NCBI GenBank assembly: GCA_964531335.1
Contig: CAZHEV010000013.1
Span: 22,732-86,731, forward strand
From: an uncultured bacterium
GTDB lineage: Bacteria > Eisenbacteria > RBG-16-71-46 > CAZHEV01
Length of the DNA: 64,000 bases
Direction: 5' to 3'
In this document: positions 3,098 through 32,513 of the stretch, one piece after another
Layout: each line of letters opens with the position of its first letter
Position numbering within the stretch: the stretch's first letter is position 1
Made by a program: the position numbers and the translations under genes
Notes under the pieces: generated by a model
Database searches by the model: none
What the model was told of the DNA's origin: nothing
The model's input: the letters and a program-made list of their open reading frames with translations, nothing else

Positions 3098-4765
3098 ATG
3101 CATGACTCGGCCAAGTTCTTCATAGACAAGTTCCGGGAACTTATCGCTCTGGCGCCCGCCCTCGGTCGCTATTACGCGCCGAGGCCCTACAGAAACGCCG
3201 CCGTGCGCTTCAGGAACCCCGATTGCGCGATCGGGGACTTCGAGGCGAGATACGATATCGCCGAAAGCACCGGCTTCAACGTCTTCATGTTCCCCTCGAA
3301 CATGATACCGGGTTGCGACCTGCTCTCGGACTCGGGCACCTCCACTATGACTGTCAAGCAATGGGCGGAGATGATTCAGGGCGATGAGGCCTATGGCTCC
3401 AACGAGGGCTTCCAGGAGCTCAAGGATCAGATCGTCGACACCTTCGGGCCGCAGTGGGCACAGCTCAAGTCGGAGAACGAGGTTCTTTTCTTGTTCCATC
3501 AGGGACGCGCCGCCGAGCACGCGATGTTCACATTGCTGGGCGGGGAGCTGGGGCGGCGCGCCGGCGAGGTCGGACCGCTTGCCGGGTCATCTTTCATGAG
3601 CGAGATCCCGGAGGACTTGAGAAAGAGCATAACCGATGAGATCGAGGCCATAGAGAGGCGCATGCACAGAACGGGGGTGGCGGGCAAACAGGTCGAGTTT
3701 TTGATTCCGAGCAACGGCCATTTCGACACCACCCAGGAAAACATAGAGGACAGCTTCATCGTGCCGCTCAACCTGCCCTGCAAGGAGCACATGGCCAAGG
3801 ACGAGGCGTTTCCCTTTCGCGGGAACATGGACATCGACGCGCTCGAGCTGCTCCTGGAACATGCCGGCGATCGCGTTCCTCTCGTCATACTCACGATCAC
3901 CAACAACACGGGCGGAGGCCAGCCCGTGTCCATGGCGAACATAAAGGCCGTGAGCGAGGCGGCGCATGAGCACGGAGTTCCCTTTATCTTCGACGCGTGC
4001 CGGTTCGCCGAGAACGCCTGGTACATCATGGAGCGCGAGGAAGGGTTCCGCGAAAAAGGGATCAGGCACATAGTCCGCGAGATGTTCAGCTACGTGGACG
4101 GATTTCACATAAGCCTCAAGAAAGACGGTCTCGTCAACATGGGCGGCGGGCTGCTCATAAAGCCCGACGGATTGATGGATGAGAAATACCCCGCCCTGAA
4201 GGACAAGCTGACGGACTGGCAGATCATGGTCGAAGGGCATCCCACGTACGGAGGCCTTGCGGGCAGGGACATAAAGGGCGTCGCTGAAGGACTAAGGACG
4301 ATAGTCAGAAGAGAGTACCTCGATCACCGGATAGGCCAGGTCGAAGCCTTCGGCCGAAAGCTAAGCGAGTACGGAATCCCCATAGCGAAGCCCATAGGGG
4401 GACACGCGGTCTACATAGACATAGACGAATTCTTCGACGGCCAGAACGTCAAGGACGAAGACTATAAGGGGATCGCCTTCACCGCGCTGTTGCTCGTGGC
4501 CGGCCACCGCCTCTGCGAGCTCGGGGTGCTTGCCTTCGGCCGCTACGATCCAGAGGCCGGCGTGGAGGTCCCGCCCAGCCCGAGAGTCAACTACGTGCGC
4601 GCCGCCGTTCCGCGATTGGCATACGAGGATCAGGACCTTTTCTCCGTGGCCGAGGCGGTGAGAGTCCTGCACGAGCACCGCGACCGCATACCGGCAATGC
4701 GGATAGTGTACGGCAGGGACCTGACGGTGCGGCACTTCAAGAGCAGGTTCGAGTTCGCGGGCTAG
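3098..4765 (+). CDS. Beta-eliminating lyase, tryptophanase/tyrosine phenol-lyase family (PLP-dependent)
   Basis: 555 aa; RBS AGGAGGG before ATG. Family motifs: DSGTSTM, GNMDIDALELL...TNNTGGGQPVSMANIKAV, DACRFAENAWYIMERE, PLP-lysine context SLKKDGLVNMGGG. Longer than canonical TnaA (N-terminal extension and an internal insert). Substrate not assignable. Confidence 0.85.
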   Translation: MHDSAKFFIDKFRELIALAPALGRYYAPRPYRNAAVRFRNPDCAIGDFEARYDIAESTGFNVFMFPSNMIPGCDLLSDSGTSTMTVKQWAEMIQGDEAYGSNEGFQELKDQIVDTFGPQWAQLKSENEVLFLFHQGRAAEHAMFTLLGGELGRRAGEVGPLAGSSFMSEIPEDLRKSITDEIEAIERRMHRTGVAGKQVEFLIPSNGHFDTTQENIEDSFIVPLNLPCKEHMAKDEAFPFRGNMDIDALELLLEHAGDRVPLVILTITNNTGGGQPVSMANIKAVSEAAHEHGVPFIFDACRFAENAWYIMEREEGFREKGIRHIVREMFSYVDGFHISLKKDGLVNMGGGLLIKPDGLMDEKYPALKDKLTDWQIMVEGHPTYGGLAGRDIKGVAEGLRTIVRREYLDHRIGQVEAFGRKLSEYGIPIAKPIGGHAVYIDIDEFFDGQNVKDEDYKGIAFTALLLVAGHRLCELGVLAFGRYDPEAGVEVPPSPRVNYVRAAVPRLAYEDQDLFSVAEAVRVLHEHRDRIPAMRIVYGRDLTVRHFKSRFEFAG

Positions 4766-5056
4766 GGGCCGCGACGATCGGCCCGGTGCGCATCTGGTGG
4801 CCCCAAAGTCGTTCCTCTAAGGAGCTTATCGGTTGCCTCGACGGCAGGCCCCATCCGCGTATCGCCCTCTGAGAGCGTCGCGCTGGCCGCACCATTCATT
4901 CACGCCGCCCTTATCGCGGCGCCGCTAATTAGCGTGTCAAGCTCATGAAAATGGTGTACAATCCGGGCGTAGAGCCGTGGGAAACGCCTAGCGGTCCTTG
5001 GGGCGCGCCACGCGAGCCCCATCGGTTTTCCATTCACGGGTGACGAAGGGAGGCGG

Positions 5057-6387: not shown

Positions 6388-8340
6388 ATGAGACACGTTT
6401 CGGTTGGAAGCCGCTTCGTTTACGCCGTCCTAGCCGGAGCCGTTCTCCTCGGTCTGTGGAGCCGCCCCTGTCAGTCTGATGACTGGAAGGGTCTGGCAAA
6501 GAAAAACTCCTTTTGGGCTGAGCTCAAGCGCGAGCACGGGGCCGCGGCGGGGGCGGTCATGTTGCTCGAGGAGGCCGAGACCCGAGTCAGGATCGAGCGC
6601 GGCTACAGTCAGACCAAGACTTACTACACTTACGTGGCCGCGATCTTGGATCCCGTCGAGGCCTACGAACTGGGCGAGTGGCGGGTTTGGAAGCTGCCAT
6701 CCAGCGCCATCGGTGATATCTCAGCTAATACATATCTAAAGTCAGGCAAGAAAGTCTCGGTTAGATCCGATGACGTTCGCGAGGCCAAGTCGGGCGACGC
6801 TACCGTGTACGAGTTCGCTCTGCCGCACTTCAAAGAGAACTGCATAGTCGAGGTCAAATACTGGATTGCCAATGAGGGCTGGTTCGTGGGTACCGAATGG
6901 CTCTTCGGCGGCAGCCACCCCACGCAGGTCTCGAGGCTGAGGCTCCTGTTTCCGGCGTGGATCGCCGAAATCAGCGCCTCCGATTGGCCCCAGGCATACG
7001 CTGCCAGAAGGGCGGTTCCAAAGCCGAAGTTCGACAGGGAGTTCACGACCGACGGGGACGTGGTGAGCTTCACATGGGAGCTCAAAGACCTGCCCGGAGT
7101 CCGGGAGGAGCCCTATATGCCGCCCGTGCGGGATCTGGTTCCGGCCGTCAAGATCGGGGCGACGCAGAAGGGGTTCCCCTGGGACCAGGCGTGCCGGTGG
7201 TATTTCGAGACCTACCTCATGGAAAGACTCGACCCCAAGCCCGAGATAAAGCAGTTGGCGATGAAGCTGTCCTCCGGAAAGGGCTCTCGAGAGGCCAGGC
7301 TTCGGTCCCTGTACGATTACGTGCGAAAGAACGTGCGGTACACGGACATTCCGCTTACCAAGAGCGGCATCTGTCCGAAGCACCCCGAGACGGTCTTGAG
7401 GAACGCGAACGGAGACTGCAAGGATCAGGCGACCCTGCTCGTAGCCCTGGCCGGGGCGATAGGACTGCCGGCCAAGTGCGCTCTTGTGCGGACCAGGGAC
7501 CTGGGTGAGGTCGAGGAGCGCATCACCGACCTGGGCGCGTTCAACCATATGATCGCGGTGGCCGACTTGGACGGGGCCGAATACTGGCTCGACCCGACCG
7601 CCACGCCCTGCCCGTTCGGCGAGCTGCCCCTCCAGGACCAGGGCGTGCGCGCTTTGGTCATAGATGAAGGCGGCGACTCCGGTTTTCGCACGACGCCGGT
7701 GAGCGGCCCCGGCGATAACAGCACGATGACCTGGACGACGGCGGTGCTGGGGGAGGATGGTTCGATCGAGGCTGAAATACGAATGTGTCCGAAGGGCCAA
7801 CACGCCTCAGGATGGCGACATGTTCTGAGCACGGCGAAGGACGAGGACATACAGAGATACCTCAATTACAGGTGCAAGGGCGCAGAGATCAAGGAGTGGT
7901 CTGCGGAAGGGGGCGAGATGTACGGCGCCGATCTCGAGTTGCGATGCAGCTTCGAGAAAGCCGACTTCGCCACCGTGGCCGAGGACATAATAGTCTTGAA
8001 GCCGGCTGTCTATTCCGAGCCGGACCTATGTAACAGATTCTCAGGCGATCGCAGAGAATACCCCATCAATATGCTGTCAATGGCATGTTGGGTGGATTCG
8101 GTGACGGTCGTGATTCCGGACGGATACGGGATCCAGGAGCCCCCCGAGCCGGTGCGCTTGGAAGGGCCCCTCGGGGAGTTCGAGATGAGCCTGGCCGTTC
8201 ACGGGGACGAGCTCAGATGCTACCGGCGCTTCGAGATCGACACGCTGGTGTGCGGCAAACATCAATACCCCGACCTCAGGGAGTTCCTGGGCCGGATTCG
8301 CAAGTGTTGCGGCAAGGGCATAGTGCTGAAGAAGGTGTGA
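6388..8340 (+). CDS. DUF3857 / transglutaminase-like domain protein with N-terminal signal peptide
   Basis: 650 aa; hydrophobic N-terminus; transglutaminase-core-like Cys region (NGDCKDQATLLVALAGAIGLPA) with downstream His/Asp. Confidence 0.75.
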   Translation: MRHVSVGSRFVYAVLAGAVLLGLWSRPCQSDDWKGLAKKNSFWAELKREHGAAAGAVMLLEEAETRVRIERGYSQTKTYYTYVAAILDPVEAYELGEWRVWKLPSSAIGDISANTYLKSGKKVSVRSDDVREAKSGDATVYEFALPHFKENCIVEVKYWIANEGWFVGTEWLFGGSHPTQVSRLRLLFPAWIAEISASDWPQAYAARRAVPKPKFDREFTTDGDVVSFTWELKDLPGVREEPYMPPVRDLVPAVKIGATQKGFPWDQACRWYFETYLMERLDPKPEIKQLAMKLSSGKGSREARLRSLYDYVRKNVRYTDIPLTKSGICPKHPETVLRNANGDCKDQATLLVALAGAIGLPAKCALVRTRDLGEVEERITDLGAFNHMIAVADLDGAEYWLDPTATPCPFGELPLQDQGVRALVIDEGGDSGFRTTPVSGPGDNSTMTWTTAVLGEDGSIEAEIRMCPKGQHASGWRHVLSTAKDEDIQRYLNYRCKGAEIKEWSAEGGEMYGADLELRCSFEKADFATVAEDIIVLKPAVYSEPDLCNRFSGDRREYPINMLSMACWVDSVTVVIPDGYGIQEPPEPVRLEGPLGEFEMSLAVHGDELRCYRRFEIDTLVCGKHQYPDLREFLGRIRKCCGKGIVLKKV

Positions 8341-8506
8341 CGGCGCGGGGCGCCCTATATCTGCCGGAGATACTGTATCTTCATGAAGTACTGGCGGCTT
8401 GTCTGGGTCCAGCCCCGGCGGCCGTCCTCGGCGATCTTGCGGTGAAATAGGTGTTGAAGAGATCGCCGCCCTCCTGGAAGAAGGGCCGCATGGGAAGGCG
8501 ATGAGA

Positions 8507-9421
8507 TTATCCCCGGTCCCTTGTCTTCTTCAGCTTGTCCTTGGCCTTGGAGAGCGAGCGGGCCCGCCTCTGGATCCCGGCCCAAGGGTCCTCTCTTTGC
8601 GAGAGGCGCCGAAACAGGCTCTTGATATCGTACTTGGCCGAGCTCAGGCCCTTTCCGCCCAGCTCGTCCCAGTCCAGGGGCGTCGCCACCGGCGCGCCCA
8701 CCTTGGCCCGGACCGAGTAAGGCGCGACGCCGCTTTGCGCGTAGGCGTTTCTGTTTACGTCTATGAAGACGCGACCGCCCCTTTTGTTCTTCCTCTGCTC
8801 GGTGGTGCGGTTGTCCGGGTCGAGCTCGACGGCCAGTTCGGCGATGTGGTCCGCGAGCTTGCGCGTCGTGTCGAAAGTCGGACCTCTCCTTATGGGCACG
8901 ACCACGTGCAGTCCGGTAGATCCTGTGGTCATGACGTGCGGCACCAGCCCCGCCTCTTCTACTATCTCCCTCAGGGCCCGCGCGGTCTCGCACGCCGCCT
9001 TGAACCTGTCCCCCGGCGGATCTATGTCGAATATCATCCTGTCGGGGCGGCGGGGCCTATCGTGCTTGCATAGCATCGCGTGAAACGTGATACAGGCCTG
9101 GTCGGCCAGATAGACCAGGTCGGCCGTCTTCTCGCAGACGACGTGCCTTACCGTTCCGCCTTCTTTCTTCAGCGTGACGCCCTTTAGCCACTTGGGGAAG
9201 TAGTCAGATCGCTTCCTCTGGTAGAACTCCTTGCCCCCGAGCCCATCCGGCAGTCTCTGCATCGTGACGGGACGGCCCTTTACGTGATCGAGCATGACGT
9301 CCGCTATCCGGCGGTAGTAGTCGATGAGATCGTCCTTTGTAACGCCTGAGTCCTTGAACAGGACCTTGTCCTCGTTCGATGTCTCGACTGTGATCTTCCC
9401 GAAGGTGTGTTTGCCGGCCAC
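8507..9421 (-). CDS. LigD polymerase (primase-polymerase) domain protein, stand-alone
   Basis: GTG start at 9421 with RBS GAAGGAGG 10 nt upstream; motifs IFDIDP (DxD) and TTGSTGLHVVVPI typical of NHEJ PolDom. Confidence 0.8.
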   Translation of the reverse strand: MAGKHTFGKITVETSNEDKVLFKDSGVTKDDLIDYYRRIADVMLDHVKGRPVTMQRLPDGLGGKEFYQRKRSDYFPKWLKGVTLKKEGGTVRHVVCEKTADLVYLADQACITFHAMLCKHDRPRRPDRMIFDIDPPGDRFKAACETARALREIVEEAGLVPHVMTTGSTGLHVVVPIRRGPTFDTTRKLADHIAELAVELDPDNRTTEQRKNKRGGRVFIDVNRNAYAQSGVAPYSVRAKVGAPVATPLDWDELGGKGLSSAKYDIKSLFRRLSQREDPWAGIQRRARSLSKAKDKLKKTRDRG

Positions 9422-9426
9422 AGTGT

Positions 9427-9840
9427 CTAAGCCTCCTTCACGACTTTCTTGGGGCTCTTGTCCGATCTCAAGCCGAGAAAGCTGGGATGGCGGAGCCTCT
9501 CATCGCCCGTCCACCCGGTGAAGCTGACCTCGGCCACGAGCTTGGGGCTGACCCAGTGCGCGTCGGTGTCCTTGTCGATGCCCTTGTCGAAGGGGCAGGT
9601 CTCGCGCTCGATGGAGCGGAGCCCCTTGACGCCGCTCCGCCTTGCCTCCTTCGTCTGCATCCTGGGCTGTAGCCTCTTGAAGCTCGTGCGCGATCCCTTG
9701 AAGGCCATCACCTCGCCGCCGGCATCTCGGTGGCGTTGTATCGCCGGCGTCTTCGCCGGTCGCGTCGAGGCCCTCGACCCATCGCCGGGCTTCGGGCCCA
9801 TCAGCGGGCAGCCAGGGCCTCGTCGCGGCCCATGAGCCAC
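9427..9840 (-). pseudogene. Remnant of an ATP-dependent DNA ligase (LigD ligase, C-terminal OB-fold only)
   Basis: Only the last part matches ligase (...RETCPFDKGIDKDTDAHWVSPKLVAEVSFTGWTGDERLRHPSFLGLRSDKSPKKV); no adenylation-domain motifs in any frame between 9427 and 9907, and 486 nt is too short for a ligase domain. Frame differs from the PE gene. Confidence 0.5.
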
Positions 9841-9907
9841 CGGCGACCCTCCAGCCCATCGCGGGGAGCCAGTGCCTCCTCGCGGCGGTAACCGGGCTCA
9901 GCGCCGG

Positions 9908-10552
9908 TCAGTTCTTTCCCTCAGCCTCCTCCGCTATCTCCTCTATCGTCTTTCCGCTCAGAACGGACTCAGGCTCCGTGCTCACCGGGTTCCTGCGCGC
10001 GTCCGCGTCGTCGTCCTTCATCTTGATCAGCAGCCAGTTGTTCTCGCCGCCGCCCATCTTCGTCTTGACCAGCGCGTATCCGCCGCGGAGCTTCTTTCCT
10101 TCGAGACGCATTTCTATGCGGCCGTCCTCGAAGCATTTGTCCATGGGGATCTCATCTCCGTCGTCGTCTTCCTTTATGTTCTTGTATCTGCCCGTGTCCC
10201 AGACGAGCACGGTCCCCGCGCCGTAGTTGTCCTCGGGTATCACCCCCTCGAAGTCCGAGTACTCGAGAGGATGATCCTCGGTCAGCACGGCAAGACGCTT
10301 CTCGCGGGGGTCCGTGGACGGCCCCTTGGGCACCGCCCAGGATTTCAAGACGCCCTCTATCTCCAAGCGGAAGTCGTAGTGGAGCCTGCTCGCGTCGTGC
10401 TTCTGGATCACGAAGATGGGCTTACGTCCGGAGCTGCCCTTGGCCGGCTTAGGCCCCCTCTTGCCCGTTGTCCGCCTCTTTTCCTTTCCCGAGGGCTCCG
10501 GGGTCGACTTGAAATCGCGCTTTTTTTGGTACTCCTTGAGTTCCTTGGGCAT
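9908..10552 (-). CDS. LigD 3-prime phosphoesterase (PE) domain protein, stand-alone
   Basis: Internal ATG 10552 (MPKELKEY...); motif FVIQKHDASRLHYDFRLEIEGVLKSWAVPKGPS is the hallmark PE signature. Confidence 0.8.
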   Translation of the reverse strand: MPKELKEYQKKRDFKSTPEPSGKEKRRTTGKRGPKPAKGSSGRKPIFVIQKHDASRLHYDFRLEIEGVLKSWAVPKGPSTDPREKRLAVLTEDHPLEYSDFEGVIPEDNYGAGTVLVWDTGRYKNIKEDDDGDEIPMDKCFEDGRIEMRLEGKKLRGGYALVKTKMGGGENNWLLIKMKDDDADARRNPVSTEPESVLSGKTIEEIAEEAEGKN

Positions 10553-10621
10553 CTTTCGGGCTCCCTTGGCGTGAACGGGTGCTTGCGGCCTACTGATCAA
10601 TGGCCTGCGGCCCGCCCGGGG

Positions 10622-11350
10622 TCAACCCAGATAGTCCAACAGCTTCCGGGCGTCATCGACGGCGTAGGCGTTTTGATCGTTGTCGAAGTAACAGTAGACG
10701 TCCAGCCCCTCTCCGTTCCAGTCCGATATCCTGCGGGCCCACGCGCGCAGCGTGTTGCCGTGATAGCTGCCCTCGTACGCCCCCTCCGGGCCGTGCAGGC
10801 GGACGTACACGAAGTCGGCCGTGACCTCGTGCGGAGTCTCGCGCCTGTTCAGCTCGTAGATGCAAAAGGCCGCGTGGTGATCGGATAGGATCTCGTAAAT
10901 CTGATCGTCCCACCAGCTCTCATCTCGAAACTCGAAGGTGTACCTCGTTCCAGAGGGCAGTGATTTCAAGAAGGCGACGAGCCTCTCGGGGTCCGCTTTC
11001 CAGCGGGGGGGAAGCTGGAAAAGGACGGGGCCCATCTTGCCCTTCAGCCCGGCGGCCTGCGAGAAGAAACGCTCGACCGGCTCCTTTGGGTCCTTGAGCT
11101 TTTTCATGTGGGTGATGTACCGGCCGGCCTTGACGGCGAAGAGGAAGTCCTTCGGCGTGCGCTTTCTCCAGTCCTCGAAGGTCTTCTTCCCCGGCAGATT
11201 GTAGAAGGAGTTGTTTATCTCGGCGGTCTTGAAGTGTCCCCGGTAGTGCTCCAGCCACTTCTTCTGAGGCAGGTCCTCCGGGTAGAAAGGGCCCTGCCAG
11301 TGCTTGTATATCCATCCGGAGGTTCCGATATGGTACTTGCCCTTTGCCAT
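10622..11350 (-). CDS. DUF72 (YecE-like) family protein
   Basis: 242 aa; MAKGKYHIGTSGWIYKHWQGPFYPEDLP...WLEHY...FKTAEINNSFY; RBS GGGAG. Confidence 0.85.
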   Translation of the reverse strand: MAKGKYHIGTSGWIYKHWQGPFYPEDLPQKKWLEHYRGHFKTAEINNSFYNLPGKKTFEDWRKRTPKDFLFAVKAGRYITHMKKLKDPKEPVERFFSQAAGLKGKMGPVLFQLPPRWKADPERLVAFLKSLPSGTRYTFEFRDESWWDDQIYEILSDHHAAFCIYELNRRETPHEVTADFVYVRLHGPEGAYEGSYHGNTLRAWARRISDWNGEGLDVYCYFDNDQNAYAVDDARKLLDYLG

Positions 11351-11474
11351 GATGATCTCCCGGATGTGCGACTCTTCCGGCTGGCTTCCATCCCGGGCAC
11401 AGGCGGCCGCGGGCGTGTAAACGCGGTCGCGGAGCTCGCGCCGGCCCCGTTTTCTGTGACCGGCGTCCGGGAGC

Positions 11475-13004
11475 CTATGAACCCCTCTTGCCGGCCCGGG
11501 TCGTCTTAGCCGCGGTGCCGGAGGATCGCTTTCTGGAAGCAGTGCGCCGCTTTATGTAGAAGTAATAGCTGAGGAATTTCTCCAGAAAGTCGTCGGCCGC
11601 GCCGCTCTTGTCGTTGTACGCCACCGTCTCCTTGCCGATCATGAGCGCCGCGTAGGCCAGCTTGTCCCTGGGCCCGCCTTGCATGTTGTCCCGATAGTCG
11701 CGGTTCAGGGTGTTAACCTGAACGACGCCGTCCGAGAACCTGCTGTGACGCCTGCCGCCTTCTTCAAAGGCCGCCTCCATATAGTTCATTCTCGGGCCTC
11801 TTGGAGTGGGACGATCTCCAGGCTCCTTTGGGGGACTCTCGGGCATCCTGAGCTGGCCCTTCTTTTCCAGCTTGCGTTGCTTAATTGTCTTCTCCGATTT
11901 CTTTCGCCTACGCTTGGCCAATCCGCCCGGCAGCTCCAGGTCGGTGAACTCATCAAGGTCGAGAATCTCCCTGGCGAGCTTGAGCGCGCGCTTCTGGACG
12001 GAGGAGAGCTCTTTCTCCTGCTCTTCCTTCAACCTCATCTCGACCTCGGCCTCGATCTGCGGAGCGTGCCTGTCGAGGAGGCTAAGGAAGGAGATCCAGT
12101 CGTCATTGTCCTCGAAACCGGTGCGAGCGGGCAGCGGTTGAAGGAAATCGGCGTCGATGAAGCCCTTCACGTAGCCTGAGGCGTAGATGCTCTCCTCGAG
12201 GCCGTACGCATCGGCCTGGGAGACGTCGTCAACGATCACCACGCCCGTGTGGCGTATGTTTACCTTCCCCTTTCCTGAGGGATCGAAATAGAGCTCGATG
12301 CCCAAGGACTTCTCCTGCTCGCCGGGTACCGGTATCCGCTCCAGCCCGCCTGCGATTCGAGGGAGGTCGATGACCGACGGCTCGACAACATAGCGATTGC
12401 CGCCCTTCAGAATCTCCACCTCCAGCCACCCCCTTCGGAGATGGCTGTCGAATCGCTCGGCGAAGACCCTGCGGAGCCTCGAAGGATCCAATGGACCCCT
12501 GGGCTTGGTGGGATCCAACTTGAGCTCGGAGATGACGATTCTCTGGCCCGGCGCGGACAGGGATTCCTTCTTCAGCGCGCTGCGGAACTCCGCCTCAGGA
12601 CTCCCCTCCCGCAGGATTACTTTTAGCGTTTCGTCCTCGCCGTCTTTTCTGGACAGAAACGTGCACTTTCGACCGATCTGCTGAAAGCTGAAGATTCCAA
12701 TGCCGAGCTGTCCGATCTGGGGCACCTTGGTGCGCCTCTTTGCGGAGTCGGCCACTCTGTGCAGGGCCGTCTCGAACTCCCCGCGAGCCATTCCATAGGG
12801 ATAATGGATCTGAACGGAGCGCTTGGTCAGGTGAAAGGAGACCCTACAGACGGGGAGGGCGTTGCCGCTCTCGGCGGCCTTGAGGTGCTCGTCGATGGCG
12901 TTGCTTATATGCTCCTTCACGGCGTCGGCGGGGTTGCGGTAGAGCGTCCCCAGCCACTGAAGGGCGTTTGCGACGTTGAGCCTTATCGGCACTCGCTTCG
13001 GCAT
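11475..13004 (-). CDS. GHKL (Hsp90/MutL/MORC-like) ATPase domain protein, function unknown
   Basis: 509 aa; Bergerat-fold boxes: N-box EHISNAIDEH, G2-box GQLGIGIFSF; charged, coiled-coil-like middle (KEEQEKELSSVQKRALKLAREI) and C-terminal region without recognisable motif. Confidence 0.65.
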   Translation of the reverse strand: MPKRVPIRLNVANALQWLGTLYRNPADAVKEHISNAIDEHLKAAESGNALPVCRVSFHLTKRSVQIHYPYGMARGEFETALHRVADSAKRRTKVPQIGQLGIGIFSFQQIGRKCTFLSRKDGEDETLKVILREGSPEAEFRSALKKESLSAPGQRIVISELKLDPTKPRGPLDPSRLRRVFAERFDSHLRRGWLEVEILKGGNRYVVEPSVIDLPRIAGGLERIPVPGEQEKSLGIELYFDPSGKGKVNIRHTGVVIVDDVSQADAYGLEESIYASGYVKGFIDADFLQPLPARTGFEDNDDWISFLSLLDRHAPQIEAEVEMRLKEEQEKELSSVQKRALKLAREILDLDEFTDLELPGGLAKRRRKKSEKTIKQRKLEKKGQLRMPESPPKEPGDRPTPRGPRMNYMEAAFEEGGRRHSRFSDGVVQVNTLNRDYRDNMQGGPRDKLAYAALMIGKETVAYNDKSGAADDFLEKFLSYYFYIKRRTASRKRSSGTAAKTTRAGKRGS

Positions 13005-16434: not shown

Positions 16435-17286
16435 TTACCTTGTCAGTATCAGCTTTCCTTTGAATTCCATCTCCTGTGTCCTCAGGACGGCCACATAGAC
16501 TCCGGCTGACACATTAACGCCGGCGTCGTTCTTCCCGTTCCATGAGAACGTGTTCGTGCCGCTTCCGAGCGGCCCGCGGTAGAGTCTTCTGACCACCCCT
16601 CCGGCGACGGAGCATATGAGGAGCTGTATCGTGTCGCCGGACCTGAGGCCGGCGCCGGTCGGCGGGGTGAAGGTGAGAGTGGCGACGGAATTGAACGGGT
16701 TGGGACGGCACCTGAAAGAGCTGGACGCGGGAATGCCCTCTCCGATTCCCGCCGCGGAGTTGACCCAGATCACAGCCGGGGCCGCCAGATCGACGGAGAG
16801 CTCGTTTCGATCTATGTCGTATACTTCCGCCTCGGCTATGGCTACCGGGCTCGAGCCGTTCTGCACGCCTTCAAAGACGAGAATGTAAAGCTCGCCCGGA
16901 GCCAGGATGAAGCTCCTGTGCCCAAGGACACAGTCCTCCACCCTCAAGCTGTCCGGCGCGATCAGCTCCCAGTTGAAAAAGGTCGAATAGGGGGCGTTCG
17001 CGTAAAGCTCTCCTTCTTCGACGGTAGTGCAGCTCACCACGCTTGGATCGAAGTACAACGTGCAGAACACGCAGCTCAGCGAGTCGACCGCGTCGTCAAC
17101 CACAACGCTCAGGGTGCAGCTTTGGCCCGGAGCGATGCAGGAGCTGGAAGGTTCCAGGGACAGCGTGGGAGAGGCGTCCGAGGCGTGACACCTGCTGGCG
17201 CCTAACACCGCCGTGAAAAGCCAAAGCACAAGGATCACGATCGGTATCCGTGCGAAATCCCCTCTATTTTCCGTCGCGTTTGCCAT
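16435..17286 (-). CDS. Secreted protein with C-terminal FlgD-Ig-like / T9SS-type sorting domain
   Basis: 283 aa; signal peptide; C-terminus CRPNPFNSVATLTF...GVYVAVLRTQEMEFKGKLILTR resembles the Por-secretion tail / FlgD-Ig family. Confidence 0.6.
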   Translation of the reverse strand: MANATENRGDFARIPIVILVLWLFTAVLGASRCHASDASPTLSLEPSSSCIAPGQSCTLSVVVDDAVDSLSCVFCTLYFDPSVVSCTTVEEGELYANAPYSTFFNWELIAPDSLRVEDCVLGHRSFILAPGELYILVFEGVQNGSSPVAIAEAEVYDIDRNELSVDLAAPAVIWVNSAAGIGEGIPASSSFRCRPNPFNSVATLTFTPPTGAGLRSGDTIQLLICSVAGGVVRRLYRGPLGSGTNTFSWNGKNDAGVNVSAGVYVAVLRTQEMEFKGKLILTR

Positions 17287-17567: not shown

Positions 17568-20500
17568 CTAGCGAAGCAGGATCATCTTCCTGGTGGCCGT
17601 GAACTCACCGGCGTCGATGCGGTAGAAGTACACGCCCGCGGGCACTATGGACCCGCCGGCGTCACGGCAGTTCCACTCGACATCGTGCCTTCCGGGGCCT
17701 CTTGTCTCGTCCACGAGCGTCCTCACCAGGCGCCCGCTCACGTCGAAGATGGAGATCGTGACCCGGCCGGCCTTCACTATATCGAAGGCGATGGTGGTCG
17801 CGGGGTTGAACGGGTTGGGATAGTTTTGCATCAGGGCACAGGTCTTGGGCGTGAACCTAGGGCCGAAGTCCTCGGCGCCCTGTATCTGGAAGCTCCTGTT
17901 CCCGATATCCCTGACCTCGATCTCGCCAAGCCTCGGCGAGCCTTCCGCGTCTCCGGCCTTGACGGTTATCCTCGCCACCTCGCCTGAGCTCTTGATCGGC
18001 ACGTTCACTCCCAGGGCCGCCACGCAGATATCCACGACGGACCCTTCTTTGTCGATCGTGCCGAAGAACAGGCTCTCGCCGCCGCCGAATATGCCGCCTC
18101 TTTCGATGGCCTCGATGGCGTCAGTCCCCGCCTCGAAGCTGACCCTGAAGCCTTTCAGGCTCTTGGCCCTGTTGTCGAGCCTGACCGAGAGAACGACATA
18201 TCCCTCCGGAGCGGAGGCATCTTCGATCTCGACTAGCTCGAAGCCGACCAGATCGTCGAGCTGCTCCCCGAACTTGCCCAGCTCAGCCAGCGTGATGGTC
18301 AGGCCCTGCGGGGCCACCTTGCCGTAGATCATGGCGAAGATCATCAGGTCCTCGAAGTTCACCACGTCGTCGGGCAGGGGGATGCCGTAGCTCGAGTTGT
18401 CGTCGGTGGGACCGAAGTCGCACTCGTTGTTCCAGCCGCCTCCTCCCTCGGAGACCGCGAAGGTCGAGGAGAACACGACCAGGTCGCTTGAGTTGACCAT
18501 GCCGTCGTAGGGACTATTGACGTCGCCGAGCCAGTAGCTCGTCGCCCTGTCCGCCGCTCCGGTGTCGAAGGCCGAGTAGTTGCCGGCCAGGTCGTATGAG
18601 AAGGCGGAGAAGTAGTAGATGTCCCTTCCGACCGTTACCGAGTCGTCGTAGGCCTCGGCCGTCACCTGGGCCACGAAGTCGCCCCCCGTCTCGTCGACGG
18701 GGTAGGCTGGGGCGGCCGTCGCGTACTCGGGGTAGTCCGTCCAGCCTGTCCTTCTCAGCTCCACCCCCGCGAAGGTCGCGTCGCCCACGGGGTTGGTCCA
18801 GGTGAGGTGTACCTTGTTGTGACCCGGGGCCGCGGCGAAGTCCGCAGGCGGATCGGGTGCGACGGTGTCCTTGTTGAACTGCCAGCTGTAGGTGTCGGGG
18901 GTGCCCTCGCCGTTCCAGTTTCCGGCATCGTCGGCCACCCTGAAGTAGACGGTGTGGCTGCCCTCGGACAGTCCCGCGAAACCGGGTAGGACCCAGCCGT
19001 CGTCGTTCCACTCGGTCGTGTCGATACCGGTGAACAGCGCGACCCAGCCGTCGGAGTCTATCTGGTACTCGGCCGTGTCGAGGTTTATGTCGTCATCGAA
19101 GCCGAAGTTGCTGAAGACGGGCGCGGTGTTGTACCAGCCGCCCTCCGCCTCGGCTATGGGCTCCATGGTGGGCACGGTGCAGTCTATCCTGACCGACCCG
19201 TTCGTCGAAGAGGTGGTCAGGGGGTTGTTGTCGAGGTCGCGGAGCTTGAAGTCGGTTACGGCGATGTCGCTTATCCCCTCGGCCACCGGGGTCAGCTCGA
19301 CGCTGAACAACACTCCGTTTCCGGTCGCGCCCGCGTCGCCTCCCAGGATGGCGCAGCTCACCTTGTAGGAACCGTCACCGTTGTCTACCGGATAGAACTG
19401 GGTGGTCCCGACGGAGGAAAGATACGAGCCCTCGGTTATGTCCGCGTTCGCCGAAGCGACCGTGGCGACCGCGTTGTCCACCGCAAAGGTCAAGTCGTAC
19501 CCGCGCACCTCTTCGCTCAGCCCGGCCCGCGTTATGACGAAATCGACGGTGACGTGATCGGTGCAGTTCGTGGTGACGTAGTCGGGCACCACGCCGGCAT
19601 GGTTTGTCGATCCCAGCCAGGGGTCGAAGTCGATGTAGTTCGTCACCGAATCGCCCAGGGCGCCTGCGTTGAGCGTCTCGTGCGCCGGGCCCGAGGCGTC
19701 CCCCCACCAGTTGTACTCGCCGTCCACCGTCATGTAGTCGCCGTCGGAGTACATCCCGAAGTTGTTGCCGGAGAGGAGGTTGTAGTTGGCGTCGGCGTTC
19801 GTGAAGATCGCGGTGGTCGGATCGTACGACACGAACCCTATCCCGATCTCGAAGCCCGTCACCTCGTTGCGGTCAACGGAGATGTCCAGGTCGTCGGGCA
19901 GGACGCCGGCCCACGCGATTATCCCGTAGCAGGCGGTGTTGTCGGTGCCGCTGAAGGTCACCACGTTCTCCGTGATGGTCATCGAGTGGGTGGCGGCCGT
20001 GCCGAAAAGCATGCTGCTTGCGCCGCTCTCCGGCTCCTCCAGCGGATCGAACGGCGAGGGCGGCAACTCCACGGGATCGTATATCAGTATCCCGTAGCTT
20101 CCGTCGCCGATGTTCTCGATGGTGAAGTCGTTGTCGCTGACGTTCATGGAGCTCGCCGCGTAGTCGTATATGCCGACCTGCGCGCCGGTCACCGTGTTGC
20201 CGGTAATGTCGAGGCTCGCGTAGTAGCTCAGTATGCTCGACGCCACCCAGCTTGCGCCGTCCCAGCCTATACCCGAGATCGTGTTGTCGTGGACCGTCCC
20301 CGATCCCTGGGCGGCCCAGACCTGCACCCCGTTCTGGGCTGTGACCGTGGTCGTGCCCGCTCCGGTTATGGTGTTGCCGGTCACGTCGACGGTCAGCGGC
20401 GTGTCGGTATCCGCGTTCAGCGCCATGGCGTTTTTCTGGAAATCGACGAAGGTGCAATCCGACACGTTTATGTTCCTGGAGACCGTGTCGTCGTTCCAGC

Positions 20501-21542
20501 TGTACAGCCCCACTCCGTGCTGGGTGCCGCTGAACGGCGTGTCCATGATTCCCGTTATGACGCAGTCATCCACCGTCCCCCCGGCGTTATTGAACGCGAT
20601 GCCGTAGAATCGGTAGTTGTCGTTGCCCTTGCCGGCGCCGTCGACCGTCAGGTGCTCCAGCGTGACATTTGCCGTGTCATGTATGTACACGATGGGATAA
20701 TTGTCTTTGCTCGTTGTGAAGTACTTCGCAAGAACGTCCGGAGAGAGTATGACGCTCGCGCCGCCTCCTCCGCCTCCGGAGACGGTGAGGTCCTTGGTTA
20801 TCTCGACCTGCTCCTCGTAGGTTCCAGCGGCCACCATCACAGTGCCGCCGTCAGCCACAGCGTCCACGCCTTCCTGGACTTTGGCAAAGGCATCGTAATC
20901 CCAGACGTGGCCGTCGTTTGCGCAGCCCGCGCAGTAGTCATCGTCGACGTAGGCCGTGTTGGGCGGGCCCGTGTCTATGCGGATCCTGTCCACGTAGAAG
21001 ACACCCGTGCCGTAATCTTCCGGCTCCAGGACTACGGCGACCGAGGCGACGTTGCCGCTGTTCGCCCAACCCGAGATGTCCATTGAGTAGTAGACCCACT
21101 CATAGGTCTTTGTCGCGTTGGAGATCTTTGGGCCGTCGACGTAGCCGCCCCACTCGTCATAGACCCTGAGGAAAAACTTCTCGCCGGAGTTGCCCAGCGG
21201 ATCGTCGTCCGGATACATGCCCATGAACCTGCACGACACGTTGCTGAAGCCGCTCCAGTCCTGCACCGAGGCGAAGGTCATGGTCACCCCGGTCCAATAG
21301 GGGCTCGCATTGTTGTGATAAGAGATCTTCATCGACTGGGTGCTGACCTCGTAGCCGGGGGTCTTCACGAAGACAGTGTCCTTGGTGTCGGATACCACCC
21401 AGGATGATCTGAGGTCGGCGTCGTCGACGTACGCGTCGAACTCATCGACGTCCTGAATTGCGGCGTCGGCGCCGGCGGGAATAAGGACGCCGGCGAAGAA
21501 GATCACAATCAGCAAAGAACAGATAACTGCAGAGAATCTCAT
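17568..21542 (-). CDS. Large secreted beta-helix repeat protein (1324 aa) with C-terminal FlgD-Ig-like / T9SS-type sorting domain
   Basis: RBS GGGAGG; signal peptide MRFSAVICSLLIVIFFAGVLIPAGADA; parallel beta-helix-like repeats; C-terminus YPNPFNPATTIAFDIV...GVYFYRIDAGEFTATRKMILLR. Confidence 0.75.
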   Translation of the reverse strand: MRFSAVICSLLIVIFFAGVLIPAGADAAIQDVDEFDAYVDDADLRSSWVVSDTKDTVFVKTPGYEVSTQSMKISYHNNASPYWTGVTMTFASVQDWSGFSNVSCRFMGMYPDDDPLGNSGEKFFLRVYDEWGGYVDGPKISNATKTYEWVYYSMDISGWANSGNVASVAVVLEPEDYGTGVFYVDRIRIDTGPPNTAYVDDDYCAGCANDGHVWDYDAFAKVQEGVDAVADGGTVMVAAGTYEEQVEITKDLTVSGGGGGGASVILSPDVLAKYFTTSKDNYPIVYIHDTANVTLEHLTVDGAGKGNDNYRFYGIAFNNAGGTVDDCVITGIMDTPFSGTQHGVGLYSWNDDTVSRNINVSDCTFVDFQKNAMALNADTDTPLTVDVTGNTITGAGTTTVTAQNGVQVWAAQGSGTVHDNTISGIGWDGASWVASSILSYYASLDITGNTVTGAQVGIYDYAASSMNVSDNDFTIENIGDGSYGILIYDPVELPPSPFDPLEEPESGASSMLFGTAATHSMTITENVVTFSGTDNTACYGIIAWAGVLPDDLDISVDRNEVTGFEIGIGFVSYDPTTAIFTNADANYNLLSGNNFGMYSDGDYMTVDGEYNWWGDASGPAHETLNAGALGDSVTNYIDFDPWLGSTNHAGVVPDYVTTNCTDHVTVDFVITRAGLSEEVRGYDLTFAVDNAVATVASANADITEGSYLSSVGTTQFYPVDNGDGSYKVSCAILGGDAGATGNGVLFSVELTPVAEGISDIAVTDFKLRDLDNNPLTTSSTNGSVRIDCTVPTMEPIAEAEGGWYNTAPVFSNFGFDDDINLDTAEYQIDSDGWVALFTGIDTTEWNDDGWVLPGFAGLSEGSHTVYFRVADDAGNWNGEGTPDTYSWQFNKDTVAPDPPADFAAAPGHNKVHLTWTNPVGDATFAGVELRRTGWTDYPEYATAAPAYPVDETGGDFVAQVTAEAYDDSVTVGRDIYYFSAFSYDLAGNYSAFDTGAADRATSYWLGDVNSPYDGMVNSSDLVVFSSTFAVSEGGGGWNNECDFGPTDDNSSYGIPLPDDVVNFEDLMIFAMIYGKVAPQGLTITLAELGKFGEQLDDLVGFELVEIEDASAPEGYVVLSVRLDNRAKSLKGFRVSFEAGTDAIEAIERGGIFGGGESLFFGTIDKEGSVVDICVAALGVNVPIKSSGEVARITVKAGDAEGSPRLGEIEVRDIGNRSFQIQGAEDFGPRFTPKTCALMQNYPNPFNPATTIAFDIVKAGRVTISIFDVSGRLVRTLVDETRGPGRHDVEWNCRDAGGSIVPAGVYFYRIDAGEFTATRKMILLR

Positions 21543-28446: not shown

Positions 28447-29124
28447 TTACTTCCGGCGATTTTCCGGGCTGTTGGCACGGCATTCAGGCAGGACACCCAA
28501 ACACCCCGCCAGTGCCAGTAGGTATTTGTCTCGGGTGCTCTCATGGATGCTGCTCGTGAACGCGCCGAGCCAGGGGAACAGATAACTGTCTTCAAAGTGA
28601 CATTGACGAAGTATCAGGCGTTCCCCCTCCGCCGTGTCGCCGCCGTCCAGCGTCCCACAGGCCCTTTCCAGCAAATGACCGCTGAACTCCAACTCGACGG
28701 CAAGGTGGTCCGGAAGCTCGCACTGTTGCTCTGAGATGACCAGCCCTTCTTCCTCATACAGACGCTCGACCTGCCGGGTCGTGTCGCCGTAGATGTGCCG
28801 GCCCGGCTCCAGGTAGACTGAACCATAAGGAGGCGACGGGACGGACGCCGGGCCGATGAACTGCCGGGTGTAGGCTACCTGCAGGTCCTCCCGTGATCGG
28901 GATTTCAACTCGGATTGCAAGGCCTCAATTGCGACGGTGTCCGGGACTCCAAGCGATTGAACCGCCCGGCGGAGTCTGGGAACAAGCTCCGCGCTCAGGA
29001 AATCCTCAGGCTCAGGAAGGCAACACAACGCGGATAGAATCAGCCTGATTTCGGCATGCTCGCGCAAGTTCGCGCTCAGCGCCGCCATGTTTCGGGATCG
29101 TTCACAAAAAGGTTCATTGATCAT
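28447..29124 (-). CDS. TorD/DmsD-family redox-enzyme maturation chaperone (ArrD-like)
   Basis: YTRQFIGP...PPYGSVYLE...ELPDHLAVELEF motifs typical of TorD-like chaperones; start could be 29124 or 29088. Confidence 0.75.
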   Translation of the reverse strand: MINEPFCERSRNMAALSANLREHAEIRLILSALCCLPEPEDFLSAELVPRLRRAVQSLGVPDTVAIEALQSELKSRSREDLQVAYTRQFIGPASVPSPPYGSVYLEPGRHIYGDTTRQVERLYEEEGLVISEQQCELPDHLAVELEFSGHLLERACGTLDGGDTAEGERLILRQCHFEDSYLFPWLGAFTSSIHESTRDKYLLALAGCLGVLPECRANSPENRRK

Positions 29125-29151
29125 AGGGACTTACAATCCGGTTCACCACGA

Positions 29152-29916
29152 TCACGCGTTCTTTCGACCGGAGAACTCGCCTACGTAGTAAACATTCGGC
29201 TCCGTGCCCGCGTCTTCCCGCAGCCTGAATGCCTTCTGACGCTTCATAGCCTCCCGGACTTCCGCTTTTGGGTCATCGAGATCACCGAAGATCCTCGCGC
29301 CCGCCGGGCAAGCCTCGACACATCGCGGAGCCTCTCTCAGCTCGACACGATGGGCGCACAGGATACATTTTTCAACGACGTCCGCGCGCCGCACGTTGTC
29401 ATAGTCGGGATGACGGTACAGCGTTCTGTGCGGCGGTGTTTGCCGCGATAAGCCGGCTACCTCCGCACCCGACGAAGTACCGCCGGGGATGACTTCCCTC
29501 TTGCCGGAGTACAGGGCATGAGCCACGCCGTTTTCATTGAAGCTGATCACGCTGTACTGTCTACCCTCGTCATCGACATCAAGAGCGCTGTAGGGACACG
29601 CTTCCTGGCACGACTGGCAGCCGATACAGCGCTCGTCGTTGTGCATGGTTATCCCGTCCGGCGTCTTGAACATTGCCTTTGGCGTGACCGGACACGCCTC
29701 GACACAAGCCGCCCTGCTGCAGTGGTTGCAGAGAACCGGCATGGTCGTGTACTTGACATCGGGAAATGTGCCCTCTTGAGTGATCAGGAAATCAGCCCAA
29801 TTGAATGTCTGCCCGTTCGCACGATCGCCCGTGTTGTTCTCCGTCTTACAGGCGATGGCGCACGCCCCGCAGCCGACGCATTTGTGGAGATCTATAACCA
29901 TTCCGTACTGGGCCAT
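29152..29916 (-). CDS. Molybdoenzyme iron-sulfur subunit with four 4Fe-4S clusters (ArrB/PsrB/DmsB-like)
   Basis: ATG 29916 with RBS GGAGG 9 nt upstream; four Cys clusters (CVGCGACAIAC, CNHCSRAACVEACP, CIGCQSCQEACP, CILCAH...CVEACP). Confidence 0.85.
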   Translation of the reverse strand: MAQYGMVIDLHKCVGCGACAIACKTENNTGDRANGQTFNWADFLITQEGTFPDVKYTTMPVLCNHCSRAACVEACPVTPKAMFKTPDGITMHNDERCIGCQSCQEACPYSALDVDDEGRQYSVISFNENGVAHALYSGKREVIPGGTSSGAEVAGLSRQTPPHRTLYRHPDYDNVRRADVVEKCILCAHRVELREAPRCVEACPAGARIFGDLDDPKAEVREAMKRQKAFRLREDAGTEPNVYYVGEFSGRKNA

Positions 29917-29944
29917 GGCGTCCATCCTCCAATTGAAGCGCGTG

Positions 29945-32470: not shown

Positions 32471-32513
32471 AGCAACCTCCAAGGGGGCATGTCATTGTGC
32501 TTGGCATCGAAGC

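What the first reader, a model, noticed from the sequence alone, without database searches (positions are those of the whole stretch)
9427..9840. LigD ligase domain reduced to a roughly 80-codon C-terminal remnant between intact PE and Pol genes
The only ligase-like sequence between the PE stop (9908) and the Pol start (9421) is the OB-fold end (HWVSPKLVAEVSFTGWTGDERLRHPSFLGLRSDK). The spacing and order match a PE-Lig-Pol LigD that lost most of its ligase domain by deletion, leaving PE and Pol as separate ORFs (Pol has its own strong RBS).
Basis: partly seen in the sequence, partly recalled or inferred. Interest (0 to 1): 0.45.

Follow-up and report, generated by a model that had tools for sequence, protein, structure and literature searches.

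The report
Decayed ligase gene between NHEJ genes
The DNA-ligase gene in the middle of a three-gene bacterial break-repair operon has been reduced by deletions to a dead fragment while its two neighbour genes remain intact; this is an ordinary pseudogene, of minor interest as a snapshot of how ligase-less versions of the operon arise.

Summary
Between an intact LigD-type phosphoesterase gene (PE, 10552..9908, minus strand) and an intact LigD-type polymerase gene (Pol, 9421..8507) lie 486 nt. A relative carries a ~1005-nt ATP-dependent ligase gene there.

The 137-codon ORF 9840..9427 matches Pfam DNA_ligase_A_C over profile positions 31-94 of 94 (E 8e-17).

- **Two pieces, not one.** The remnant is not only a C-terminal piece. 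A profile of 41 related ligases finds two in-frame pieces: motif III (9723..9634) and the last 65 codons of the OB domain (9624..9430). They are joined by an in-frame loss of ~142 codons. The 5' 184 nt are non-coding-like, 75% GC, and hold a 58-nt tandem repeat. Motifs I, IIIa, IV and V are gone.
- **The genes were probably already separate.** The three closest loci examined carry PE, Lig and Pol as three separate genes, so the deletion probably did not create the separate PE and Pol ORFs.

A second assembly of the same run is identical. No other ligase and no Ku lie within the ~73 kb inspected. Seventeen of 80 related loci have PE directly next to Pol, so this locus looks like an intermediate of a recurrent ligase loss. 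Verdict: real, ordinary pseudogene, low interest.

The parts
9908..10552 (-). Intact stand-alone LigD-type 3'-phosphoesterase (PE) gene, 214 aa from the ATG at 10552. The mechanical ORF extends to the TTG at 10600 (230 aa).
   Evidence: PF13298, E 2.9e-44. TIGR02777, 210 bits against a cut-off of 144. The Logan gene call is 214 aa. An SD-like AAGGGAG lies upstream of the ATG.
9724..9907 (-). 184 nt directly after the PE stop, with no ligase homology in any frame. GC is 74-75% and there is no codon periodicity. It takes the place of ligase codons ~1-92, including the motif I lysine.
   Evidence: A 41-sequence Lig HMM run with all filters off finds nothing here in six frames. GC by codon position is 0.74/0.74/0.74, against 0.58/0.40/0.83 in PE. 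The stretch is unique in the window. Its RNA fold is -99.7 kcal/mol, z = -2.34. No Rfam match.
9763..9886 (.). Tandem repeat inside the 184-nt stretch: 58-nt unit, 2.2 copies, 77% matches.
   Evidence: TRF score 141. Direct repeat families D1 and D2 with spacings of 57-58 nt.
9427..9840 (-). 137-codon ORF from the GTG at 9840, with an SD-like GGAGGG at 9852..9847, running through both ligase pieces to the native-position stop TAG at 9429..9427. Public gene callers call only the 93-aa part from the ATG at 9708.
   Evidence: It is a singleton cluster with no named members.
9634..9723 (-). Ligase piece A: nucleotidyltransferase motif III and the following SFxRLQxR stretch (Lig profile positions 93-125). 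The invariant motif III Asp is replaced by Gly (GGEVM for DGEVV).
   Evidence: hmmsearch independent E 1.4e-9. tblastn with three related ligases, E 7e-4 to 5e-5 against the whole window. Columns D94->G and V98->M are 100% conserved in the 41 intact ligases. GC3 is 0.90.
9625..9633 (-). Deletion junction: three codons (G-V-K) stand where relatives have about 142 codons (profile positions 126-267: motifs IIIa, IV, V and the N-terminal half of the OB domain). The reading frame is preserved.
   Evidence: Both HMM pieces lie in the same frame, at ORF-frame residues 62-91 and 95-159. The fragment P0002 aligns to both sides of the junction.
9430..9624 (-). Ligase piece B: the last 65 codons of the OB domain, including motif VI (LRHPSFLGLRSDK). 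It also holds the Pol Shine-Dalgarno sequence in its last codons.
   Evidence: hmmsearch E 1e-26, profile positions 268-332. Pfam PF04679, E 7.9e-17. It equals residues 248-310 of 1VS0. TIGR02779 gives only 58 bits against a cut-off of 227.75. GC3 is 0.92.
8507..9421 (-). Intact stand-alone LigD-type polymerase/primase (Pol) gene, 304 aa, GTG start, with SD AAGGAGG at 9438..9432.
   Evidence: PF21686, E 9.2e-84. TIGR02778, 245 bits against a cut-off of 214.7. It is 54-58% identical to stand-alone Pol genes of PE-Lig-Pol operons.

Best explanation
This is the dead remnant of the middle gene of a three-gene NHEJ operon, PE - Lig - Pol, a 'split LigD'.

At least two events destroyed the ligase gene:
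1. Its first ~92 codons (start codon and the motif I adenylylation lysine) were lost or replaced by a 184-nt GC-rich, non-coding-like stretch. That stretch later acquired, or already contained, a 58-nt tandem duplication.
2. An internal deletion of about 142 codons removed motifs IIIa, IV, V and the N-terminal half of the OB domain. It happened to keep the reading frame.

What survives is 30 codons around motif III fused to the last 65 codons of the OB domain. It cannot adenylylate or seal DNA.

The flanking PE and Pol genes are intact. The Pol ribosome-binding site lies inside the last codons of the remnant, which may be why the 3' end of the ligase gene is the best-preserved part (inferred). 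The deletion is recent relative to the divergence from the nearest sampled relatives, because the surviving codons still look like coding sequence and are only slightly over-diverged. The locus is a half-way stage towards the tidy PE-Pol arrangement seen in many other bacteria.

Shown: the anatomy, the homology, the loss of motifs, and the intactness of the neighbours. Inferred: the order and nature of the events, the lack of function, and the reason the 3' end is kept.
For: - **Homology and anatomy.** Only two pieces match a 41-sequence Lig profile, both in one frame, with profile positions 126-267 missing between them and nothing 5' of position 93. tblastn with three related ligases gives the same picture. 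Pfam, PDB and NCBIfam mapping agree.
- **Ancestral state.** The three closest loci examined have separate PE, Lig (334-337 aa) and Pol genes in the same order, abutting or overlapping. 34 of 80 GTDB loci are PE-Lig-Pol.
- **Non-coding nature of the 5' 184 nt.** GC is 74-75% with no periodicity, against GC3 of 0.90-0.92 in pieces A and B. A 58-nt x 2.2 tandem repeat lies inside it.
- **Relaxed constraint.** 4 of 32 columns that are >=90% conserved are substituted, including the invariant motif III Asp. Intact ligases show a median of 0 and a range of 0-3, plus one outlier at 6. Identity to intact ligases is 0.512, against 0.572 +/- 0.053 expected at the same Pol divergence.
- **Not an assembly quirk of one assembler.** Logan contig SRR7048218_79238 is 100% identical across PE-remnant-Pol. 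No intact allele (about 100% identical in piece B) appears among the proteins of the collection.
- **Recurrence of ligase loss.** 17 loci have PE directly next to Pol, with gaps of -17 to +58 nt or a single open frame. They are scattered over the Pol tree. A second in-frame remnant occurs upstream of Pol in L052.
Against: - The deletion is in frame, the 137-codon ORF has no internal stop, and it has an SD-like GGAGGG 6 nt before its GTG. A translated product is therefore not excluded.
- The over-divergence of the surviving codons is only about 1.1 SD. One of the four 'conserved-column' changes (RHPRF to RHPSF) is a natural variant in other ligase lineages.
- The nearest relatives are only 50-58% identical. 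The ancestral state (split or fused) and the exact deletion end-points are inferred, not observed.
- The Pol tree is a rough neighbour-joining tree without support values.
- No reads were available. Both assemblies probably come from the same run.
Confidence: 0.85

Rival explanations
1. The remnant ORF is kept by selection rather than being neutral debris. It would act as a short translated leader ending 5 nt before the Pol start. Ribosomes would then still be delivered to Pol, and transcription of Pol would not suffer polarity after the ligase was lost. Alternatively it might be a small OB-fragment protein with some function of its own.
For: - The deletion preserves the frame up to the native stop, 5 nt upstream of the Pol GTG.
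- An SD-like GGAGGG lies 6 nt before the GTG at 9840.
- In relatives the Lig stop and the Pol start overlap or abut, the usual layout of translational coupling.
- Pieces A and B keep GC3 of 0.90-0.92 and near-normal identity.
- The independent remnant in L052 is also in frame and runs into Pol.
Against: - An in-frame outcome has a 1-in-3 chance per event. Two of two is not significant.
- The ORF is a singleton with no relatives of the same make-up.
- Its N-terminal 39-60 codons have no coding signature.
- Invariant residues are substituted.
- Only about half of an OB barrel remains, which is unlikely to fold alone.
- Pol has a strong SD of its own, and tidy PE-Pol loci do without any such leader.
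Confidence: 0.08
2. One reading: the ancestor was a single fused PE-Lig-Pol LigD polypeptide, and the deletion of the ligase domain created the separate PE and Pol ORFs.
For: - Fused LigD proteins in this domain order exist; for example NCBIfam NF004628 covers PE, Lig and Pol in one 870-position model.
- Some related loci have PE and Pol in one open frame (L014, L016, L063).
Against: - All three closest loci examined have three separate genes.
- Nearly all of the 120 best Pol homologues listed are stand-alone proteins of about 300 aa.
- The PE gene ends, and the Pol gene begins with its SD, at the same relative positions as in the split operons.
- The remnant ends at a stop codon where stand-alone Lig genes end.
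Confidence: 0.05
3. Assembly artefact: a full-length ligase gene exists in the organism, but the assembly collapsed or chimerically joined the region.
For: - The 5' stretch contains a 58-nt tandem repeat and is very GC-rich, features that can trouble short-read assembly.
- The source is a metagenome-assembled contig.
Against: - Two different assemblies (the NCBI MAG contig and the Logan contig) agree base for base over 2.3 kb.
- The internal junction at 9633..9625 is not flanked by long repeats; the best repeats touching it are imperfect ones of 25-26 nt, 72-73% matching.
- No contig encoding an intact allele turns up in the protein search.
- A collapse would not produce substitutions at invariant residues.
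Confidence: 0.02

Closest known systems
Split ('non-conventional') bacterial/archaeal NHEJ operons with stand-alone PE, Lig and Pol genes. Examples here are loci L002, L004 and L006. The Methanocella paludicola Ku/Lig/Pol/PE system is a further example (from my own knowledge of Bartlett et al. 2013, not checked here). The category is defined in Sharda et al. 2020, PMC7719229.
   Same: Same gene order PE-Lig-Pol, same stand-alone PE and Pol proteins (54-63% identity), and the same position of the Lig stop next to the Pol start.
   Different: The ligase gene is reduced from about 1005 nt to two short pieces. Motifs I, IIIa, IV and V are absent. No Ku gene lies in the ~73 kb inspected.
PE-Pol two-gene or fused loci without a ligase. 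17 of the 80 related genome loci are of this kind, e.g. L053 (Gemmatimonadota), L014 and L016 (Rubricoccaceae, one open frame) and L059 (Autumnicola).
   Same: The functional content is the same: an intact PE followed by an intact Pol, with no ligase between them. In the rough NJ tree the window's Pol groups next to L053.
   Different: Those loci are tidy, with gaps of -17 to +58 nt or a single ORF. Here 486 nt of ligase debris and repeat remain.
Conventional three-domain LigD (M. tuberculosis Rv0938, P. aeruginosa LigD; ligase-domain structures 1VS0 and 6NHZ).
   Same: All three modules are homologous. The remnant aligns to the last 63 residues of the solved ligase domain.
   Different: The modules here are on separate genes, and the ligase module is non-functional.
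The ligase remnant upstream of Pol in L052 (uncultured Actinomycetota MAG).
   Same: An independent in-frame internal deletion of a Lig gene directly upstream of an intact Pol (profile positions 128-201 joined to 248-300).
   Different: Different parts are kept (motifs IIIa-IV and the middle of the OB domain), and it lies in a different lineage. It comes from a long-read assembly, so sequence errors are possible.

Membership tests
ATP-dependent DNA ligase, NHEJ LigD ligase module (TIGR02779 / PF01068 + PF04679) | Scores above the curated family cut-off over the whole module | tested here: not met
   TIGR02779 gives 58 bits against a cut-off of 227.75, and only positions 239-301 of 302 are matched. 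An intact relative, L004 Lig, scores 314.8.
ATP-dependent DNA ligase, NHEJ LigD ligase module (TIGR02779 / PF01068 + PF04679) | Nucleotidyltransferase motif I (KxDGxR) with the adenylylated lysine | tested here: not met
   There is no match to profile positions 1-92 in any of six frames with all filters off. No PF01068 hit.
ATP-dependent DNA ligase, NHEJ LigD ligase module (TIGR02779 / PF01068 + PF04679) | Motifs IIIa, IV and V of the adenylylation domain | tested here: not met
   Profile positions 126-267 are replaced by three codons.
ATP-dependent DNA ligase, NHEJ LigD ligase module (TIGR02779 / PF01068 + PF04679) | Motif III (DGExV) intact | tested here: not met
   The motif is present but reads GGEVM. 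Asp94 and Val98 are 100% conserved in the 41 intact relatives.
ATP-dependent DNA ligase, NHEJ LigD ligase module (TIGR02779 / PF01068 + PF04679) | Complete C-terminal OB domain with motif VI | tested here: inconclusive
   Only PF04679 positions 31-94 of 94 are present, which is the last 65 of about 119 OB codons. Motif VI is present as LRHPSFLGLRSDK, with Arg to Ser at a column that is 93% conserved.
LigD 3'-phosphoesterase (PF13298 / TIGR02777), for the upstream gene | Full-length match above the curated cut-off | tested here: met
   PF13298 positions 1-107 of 107, E 2.9e-44. TIGR02777, 210 bits against 144.
LigD polymerase/primase (PF21686 / TIGR02778), for the downstream gene | Full-length match above the curated cut-off | tested here: met
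   PF21686 positions 1-254 of 254, E 9.2e-84. TIGR02778, 245.2 bits against 214.7.
Complete bacterial NHEJ system (Ku + LigD functions) | A Ku gene and a functional ATP-dependent ligase in the genome | tested here: inconclusive
   None was found in the 64-kb window by tblastn with ligases or by Pfam scans of about 40 long ORFs. None was found in 9 kb beyond the window start either. The rest of the genome is not available.
Conserved family of short OB-fragment proteins | Homologues of similar length and make-up in other genomes | tested here: not met
   The ORF is a singleton cluster. Two of the three other short PF04679-only ORFs checked are pieces of frameshifted full-length ligase genes in long-read assemblies; the third (L090) shows an OB domain with no adenylylation domain detected upstream, in a visibly fragmented assembly.

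The most novel reading that the evidence does not exclude
The in-frame remnant is not neutral debris. It would be maintained as a translated leader ORF that preserves translational coupling, and protection from transcriptional polarity, for the downstream Pol gene after the ligase was lost. In-frame ligase remnants upstream of Pol (here and in L052) would then be a selected, recurrent intermediate on the way from PE-Lig-Pol to PE-Pol operons.
Probability: 0.08. Interest if true: 0.35.

Novelty: already known. Interest (0 to 1): 0.15.

Why it matters
It matters little on its own. Gene decay and the patchy gain and loss of NHEJ components in bacteria are well documented (Sharda et al. 2020, PMC7719229).

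- **Annotation.** The 93-aa 'DNA_ligase_A_C' gene call in the public record should be flagged as a pseudogene fragment. On the evidence of this locus, the organism should not be scored as having a LigD ligase.
- **Evolution.** The locus is a concrete intermediate showing that ligase-less PE-Pol operons, common among relatives, can arise by piecemeal deletion of the middle gene of a PE-Lig-Pol operon.
- **Open question.** What do PE and Pol do without a linked ligase? They may work with another ligase, or have a role outside classical NHEJ.

Tried and rejected
1. I looked for frameshifted ligase sequence in the other five frames of 9422-9907, using tblastn at word size 2 and E up to 100, and a 41-sequence HMM with all filters off. 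Nothing turned up beyond the two in-frame pieces. The gene is deleted, not merely frameshifted.
2. I looked for another ATP-dependent ligase or a Ku gene in the window and in 9 kb beyond its start. None was found. A look-up at the other end failed because the ORF start did not match a called gene.
3. I asked whether the short OB-only ORFs P0003, P0012 and P0018 form a conserved small-protein family. Two are frameshifted full-length ligases in long-read assemblies, and the third comes from a visibly fragmented assembly. Rejected.
4. I searched for the 184-nt GC-rich stretch elsewhere in the window and in 90 loci, and against Rfam. It has no copies and no family.
5. The promoter/terminator scan of 8300-11600 gave nothing above shuffled expectation.
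6. I tried to obtain the organism's name through cluster members. No names are on record.
7. I considered an AlphaFold model of the 137-aa ORF and did not run it. With an alignment of full ligases it would reproduce the OB fragment whether or not it can fold, so it would not discriminate between the explanations.
8. I did not scan metagenome contigs. The 5.8-billion-protein search had already shown no Pol relative above 58% identity, so a closer locus was unlikely.

Full report
**What is there.**
On the minus strand the window carries DUF72 (11350..10622), then a LigD-type 3'-phosphoesterase gene, then 486 nt, then a LigD-type polymerase/primase gene.
- PE runs 10552..9908 and encodes 214 aa from the ATG. 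The mechanical ORF reaches back to the TTG at 10600.
- Pol runs 9421..8507 and encodes 304 aa from a GTG start.
- PE matches PF13298 end to end (E 2.9e-44) and passes TIGR02777 (210 bits, cut-off 144).
- Pol matches PF21686 end to end (E 9.2e-84) and passes TIGR02778 (245 bits, cut-off 214.7).
- In the 486-nt gap, the ORF 9840..9427 (137 codons) matches Pfam DNA_ligase_A_C at profile positions 31-94 of 94 (E 7.9e-17).
- ORF residues 76-136 align with the last 63 residues of the M. tuberculosis LigD ligase-domain structures 1VS0 and 6NHZ.

**Anatomy of the remnant.**
I extracted 41 ligase proteins from related loci, built a 334-position profile, and searched all six frames of 9907..9422 with every filter off. 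Only the frame of the 137-codon ORF matches, in two pieces:
- Piece A, window 9723..9634, covers profile positions 93-125. This is nucleotidyltransferase motif III, DGEVV, and the following SFxRLQxR stretch (independent E 1.4e-9).
- Piece B, window 9624..9430, covers profile positions 268-332. This is the C-terminal half of the OB domain, with motif VI (E 1e-26).

Three codons (G-V-K, 9633..9625) stand in place of profile positions 126-267. tblastn with three individual ligases gives the same two pieces, against the region and against the whole window. The metagenomic fragment P0002 aligns to both sides of the junction.

The internal loss of about 142 codons preserved the frame. It removed motifs IIIa, IV and V and the first half of the OB barrel. 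The motif names and roles come from established knowledge of ATP-dependent ligases.

Nothing in the 184 nt between the PE stop and piece A (9907..9724) resembles ligase positions 1-92, so the start codon and the motif I lysine are gone. NCBIfam TIGR02779 gives the ORF 58 bits against a cut-off of 227.75, whereas an intact relative scores 314.8.

**The 5' 184 nt are not decayed coding sequence of the usual kind.**
- GC is 74-75%, against 60-62% in the neighbouring genes.
- There is no codon-position periodicity (0.74/0.74/0.74 in the ORF frame).
- Pieces A and B, by contrast, keep the genome's coding signature, with GC3 of 0.90-0.92.
- The stretch holds a 58-nt unit repeated 2.2 times (9763-9886, 77% matches, TRF score 141).
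- It has no other copy in the window or in any fetched locus and no Rfam match.
- It folds somewhat better than shuffled controls (-99.7 kcal/mol, z = -2.34).

I cannot say where this sequence came from. The simplest reading is that the 5' end of the gene was deleted or replaced, with a later slippage duplication in DNA that was by then unconstrained.

**What the ancestor looked like.**
- The 120 best Pol homologues listed are almost all stand-alone proteins of about 300 aa; the best non-self hit is 58% identical.
- The three closest loci I could inspect (L002, L004, L006) each carry PE (201-211 aa), Lig (334-337 aa) and Pol (305-307 aa). These are three separate genes in this order, abutting or overlapping.
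- By automated classification, 34 of the 80 loci fetched from species-representative genomes are PE-Lig-Pol, 9 are Lig-Pol and 19 have Pol alone.
- 17 loci have PE directly next to Pol with no ligase (the automated classification counted 16).
- In those PE-Pol loci the gap is -17 to +58 nt, or PE and Pol share one open frame.
- In a rough neighbour-joining tree of Pol, without support values, the PE-Pol loci fall in at least eight separate places among PE-Lig-Pol loci. The window's Pol sits next to a PE-Pol locus, L053.
- One more locus, L052 from an Actinomycetota MAG, has an independent in-frame ligase remnant (profile positions 128-201 joined to 248-300) directly upstream of Pol.

The separate PE and Pol ORFs, however, are most likely ancestral and not a product of the deletion. 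The window looks like an untidy intermediate in a loss that has happened repeatedly.

**Is the remnant under constraint?**
- Over the retained columns, the remnant is on average 51.2% identical to the 41 intact ligases. Intact pairs at the same Pol divergence show 57.2 +/- 5.3%.
- The ratio of segment identity to Pol identity is 1.02. Intact loci range from 0.92 to 1.18, with a median of 1.12.
- At columns that are >=90% conserved, the remnant has 4 mismatches in 32: motif III Asp to Gly, Val98 to Met, Glu304 to Gly and Arg315 to Ser. In a leave-one-out count, intact ligases have a median of 0 and a range of 0-3, with one outlier at 6.

Together with the preserved GC3 and the absence of stop codons, this points to a fairly recent inactivation with the first signs of relaxed selection. 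The relatives are distant, so the test has little power to date the event.

**Artefact?**
The Logan assembly of run SRR7048218 contains a contig (L001) that is identical base for base across PE, the remnant and Pol. No protein about 100% identical to piece B but of full length is in the 5.8-billion-protein collection. The junction is not flanked by long repeats. Read-level confirmation was not possible with the tools available.

**A real small protein?**
The ORF is a singleton cluster with no name. Of the three other short PF04679-only ORFs I checked, two proved to be pieces of frameshifted full-length ligase genes in long-read assemblies. The third (L090) shows only an OB domain upstream of Pol, in a visibly fragmented assembly. 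The ORF keeps only about half of an OB barrel.

Three facts stop me from excluding translation:
- The frame is preserved up to the native stop, 5 nt before the Pol GTG.
- An SD-like GGAGGG lies 6 nt before the GTG at 9840.
- The Pol SD (AAGGAGG, 9438..9432) lies inside the ORF's last codons.

A role as a coupling leader for Pol is possible but unsupported. I give it about 8%.

**Context.**
No other ATP-dependent ligase and no Ku gene lie in the 64-kb window or in 9 kb beyond its start. The rest of the genome is unknown, so I cannot say whether the organism still performs NHEJ with a ligase encoded elsewhere. Sharda et al. 2020 (PMC7719229) already classify genomes with LigD domains on separate proteins as 'non-conventional NHEJ'. 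[quoted passage not shown] The end state is therefore known.

**Verdict.**
Its only mildly interesting aspect is that it catches the conversion of a PE-Lig-Pol operon into a PE-Pol operon half-way. Interest 0.15.

Noticed in passing
window 9763-9886: A 58-nt unit repeated 2.2 times (77% matches) lies in a 75%-GC, non-periodic stretch right after the PE stop. It is unique in the window, has no Rfam family, and its RNA fold has z = -2.3. Its origin is unexplained.
   Followed up: partly
window 9562-9590: A 12-nt unit (GTCGATGCCCTT on the + strand) is repeated 2.4 times inside ligase piece B. It encodes the DKGIDKDTD linker before HWVSP, a small in-frame duplication in a variable loop.
   Followed up: no
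L052 3624-3995: An independent in-frame ligase remnant (profile positions 128-201 fused to 248-300) lies directly upstream of an intact Pol gene in an uncultured Actinomycetota MAG. It is a long-read assembly, so errors are possible.
   Followed up: partly
L014, L016, L063 (about 3200-4900 in each): PE and Pol lie in one continuous open frame with no ligase domain, that is, a PE-Pol fusion protein. P0096 (528 aa, PF13298 + PF21686) is another example.
   Followed up: partly
L036 2668-3611: The ligase gene of a Candidatus Sumerlaeota MAG matches the profile in three different frames. It is either a frameshifted pseudogene or carries sequence errors.
   Followed up: no
L090 3328-4288: Only the OB domain (profile positions 214-331) is detectable upstream of Pol, with about 600 nt of unmatched sequence before it. 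The assembly has many fragmented genes, so this may be error rather than biology.
   Followed up: no
window 11475-13004 (-): A 509-aa ORF next to the DUF72 gene has no Pfam hit at E <= 1e-5. By eye, its N-terminus (…NPADAVKEHISNAIDE…) recalls the N-box of GHKL-type ATPases. This was not tested.
   Followed up: no
window 17568-21542 (-) and 16435-17286 (-): A 1324-aa beta-helix protein carries FlgD_ig and a Por_Secre_tail (T9SS sorting) domain, and a second FlgD_ig protein lies nearby. This hints that the contig comes from an FCB-group bacterium. The organism's name could not be retrieved.
   Followed up: no
window 28447-32482 (-): A gene cluster encodes a molybdopterin oxidoreductase (845 aa), a 4Fe-4S subunit (Fer4_11) and a NarJ-like chaperone (Nitrate_red_del). 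Nearby are an Rrf2 regulator, a sulphur-transport protein, and an ArsR-rhodanese fusion at 46129-46812.
   Followed up: no
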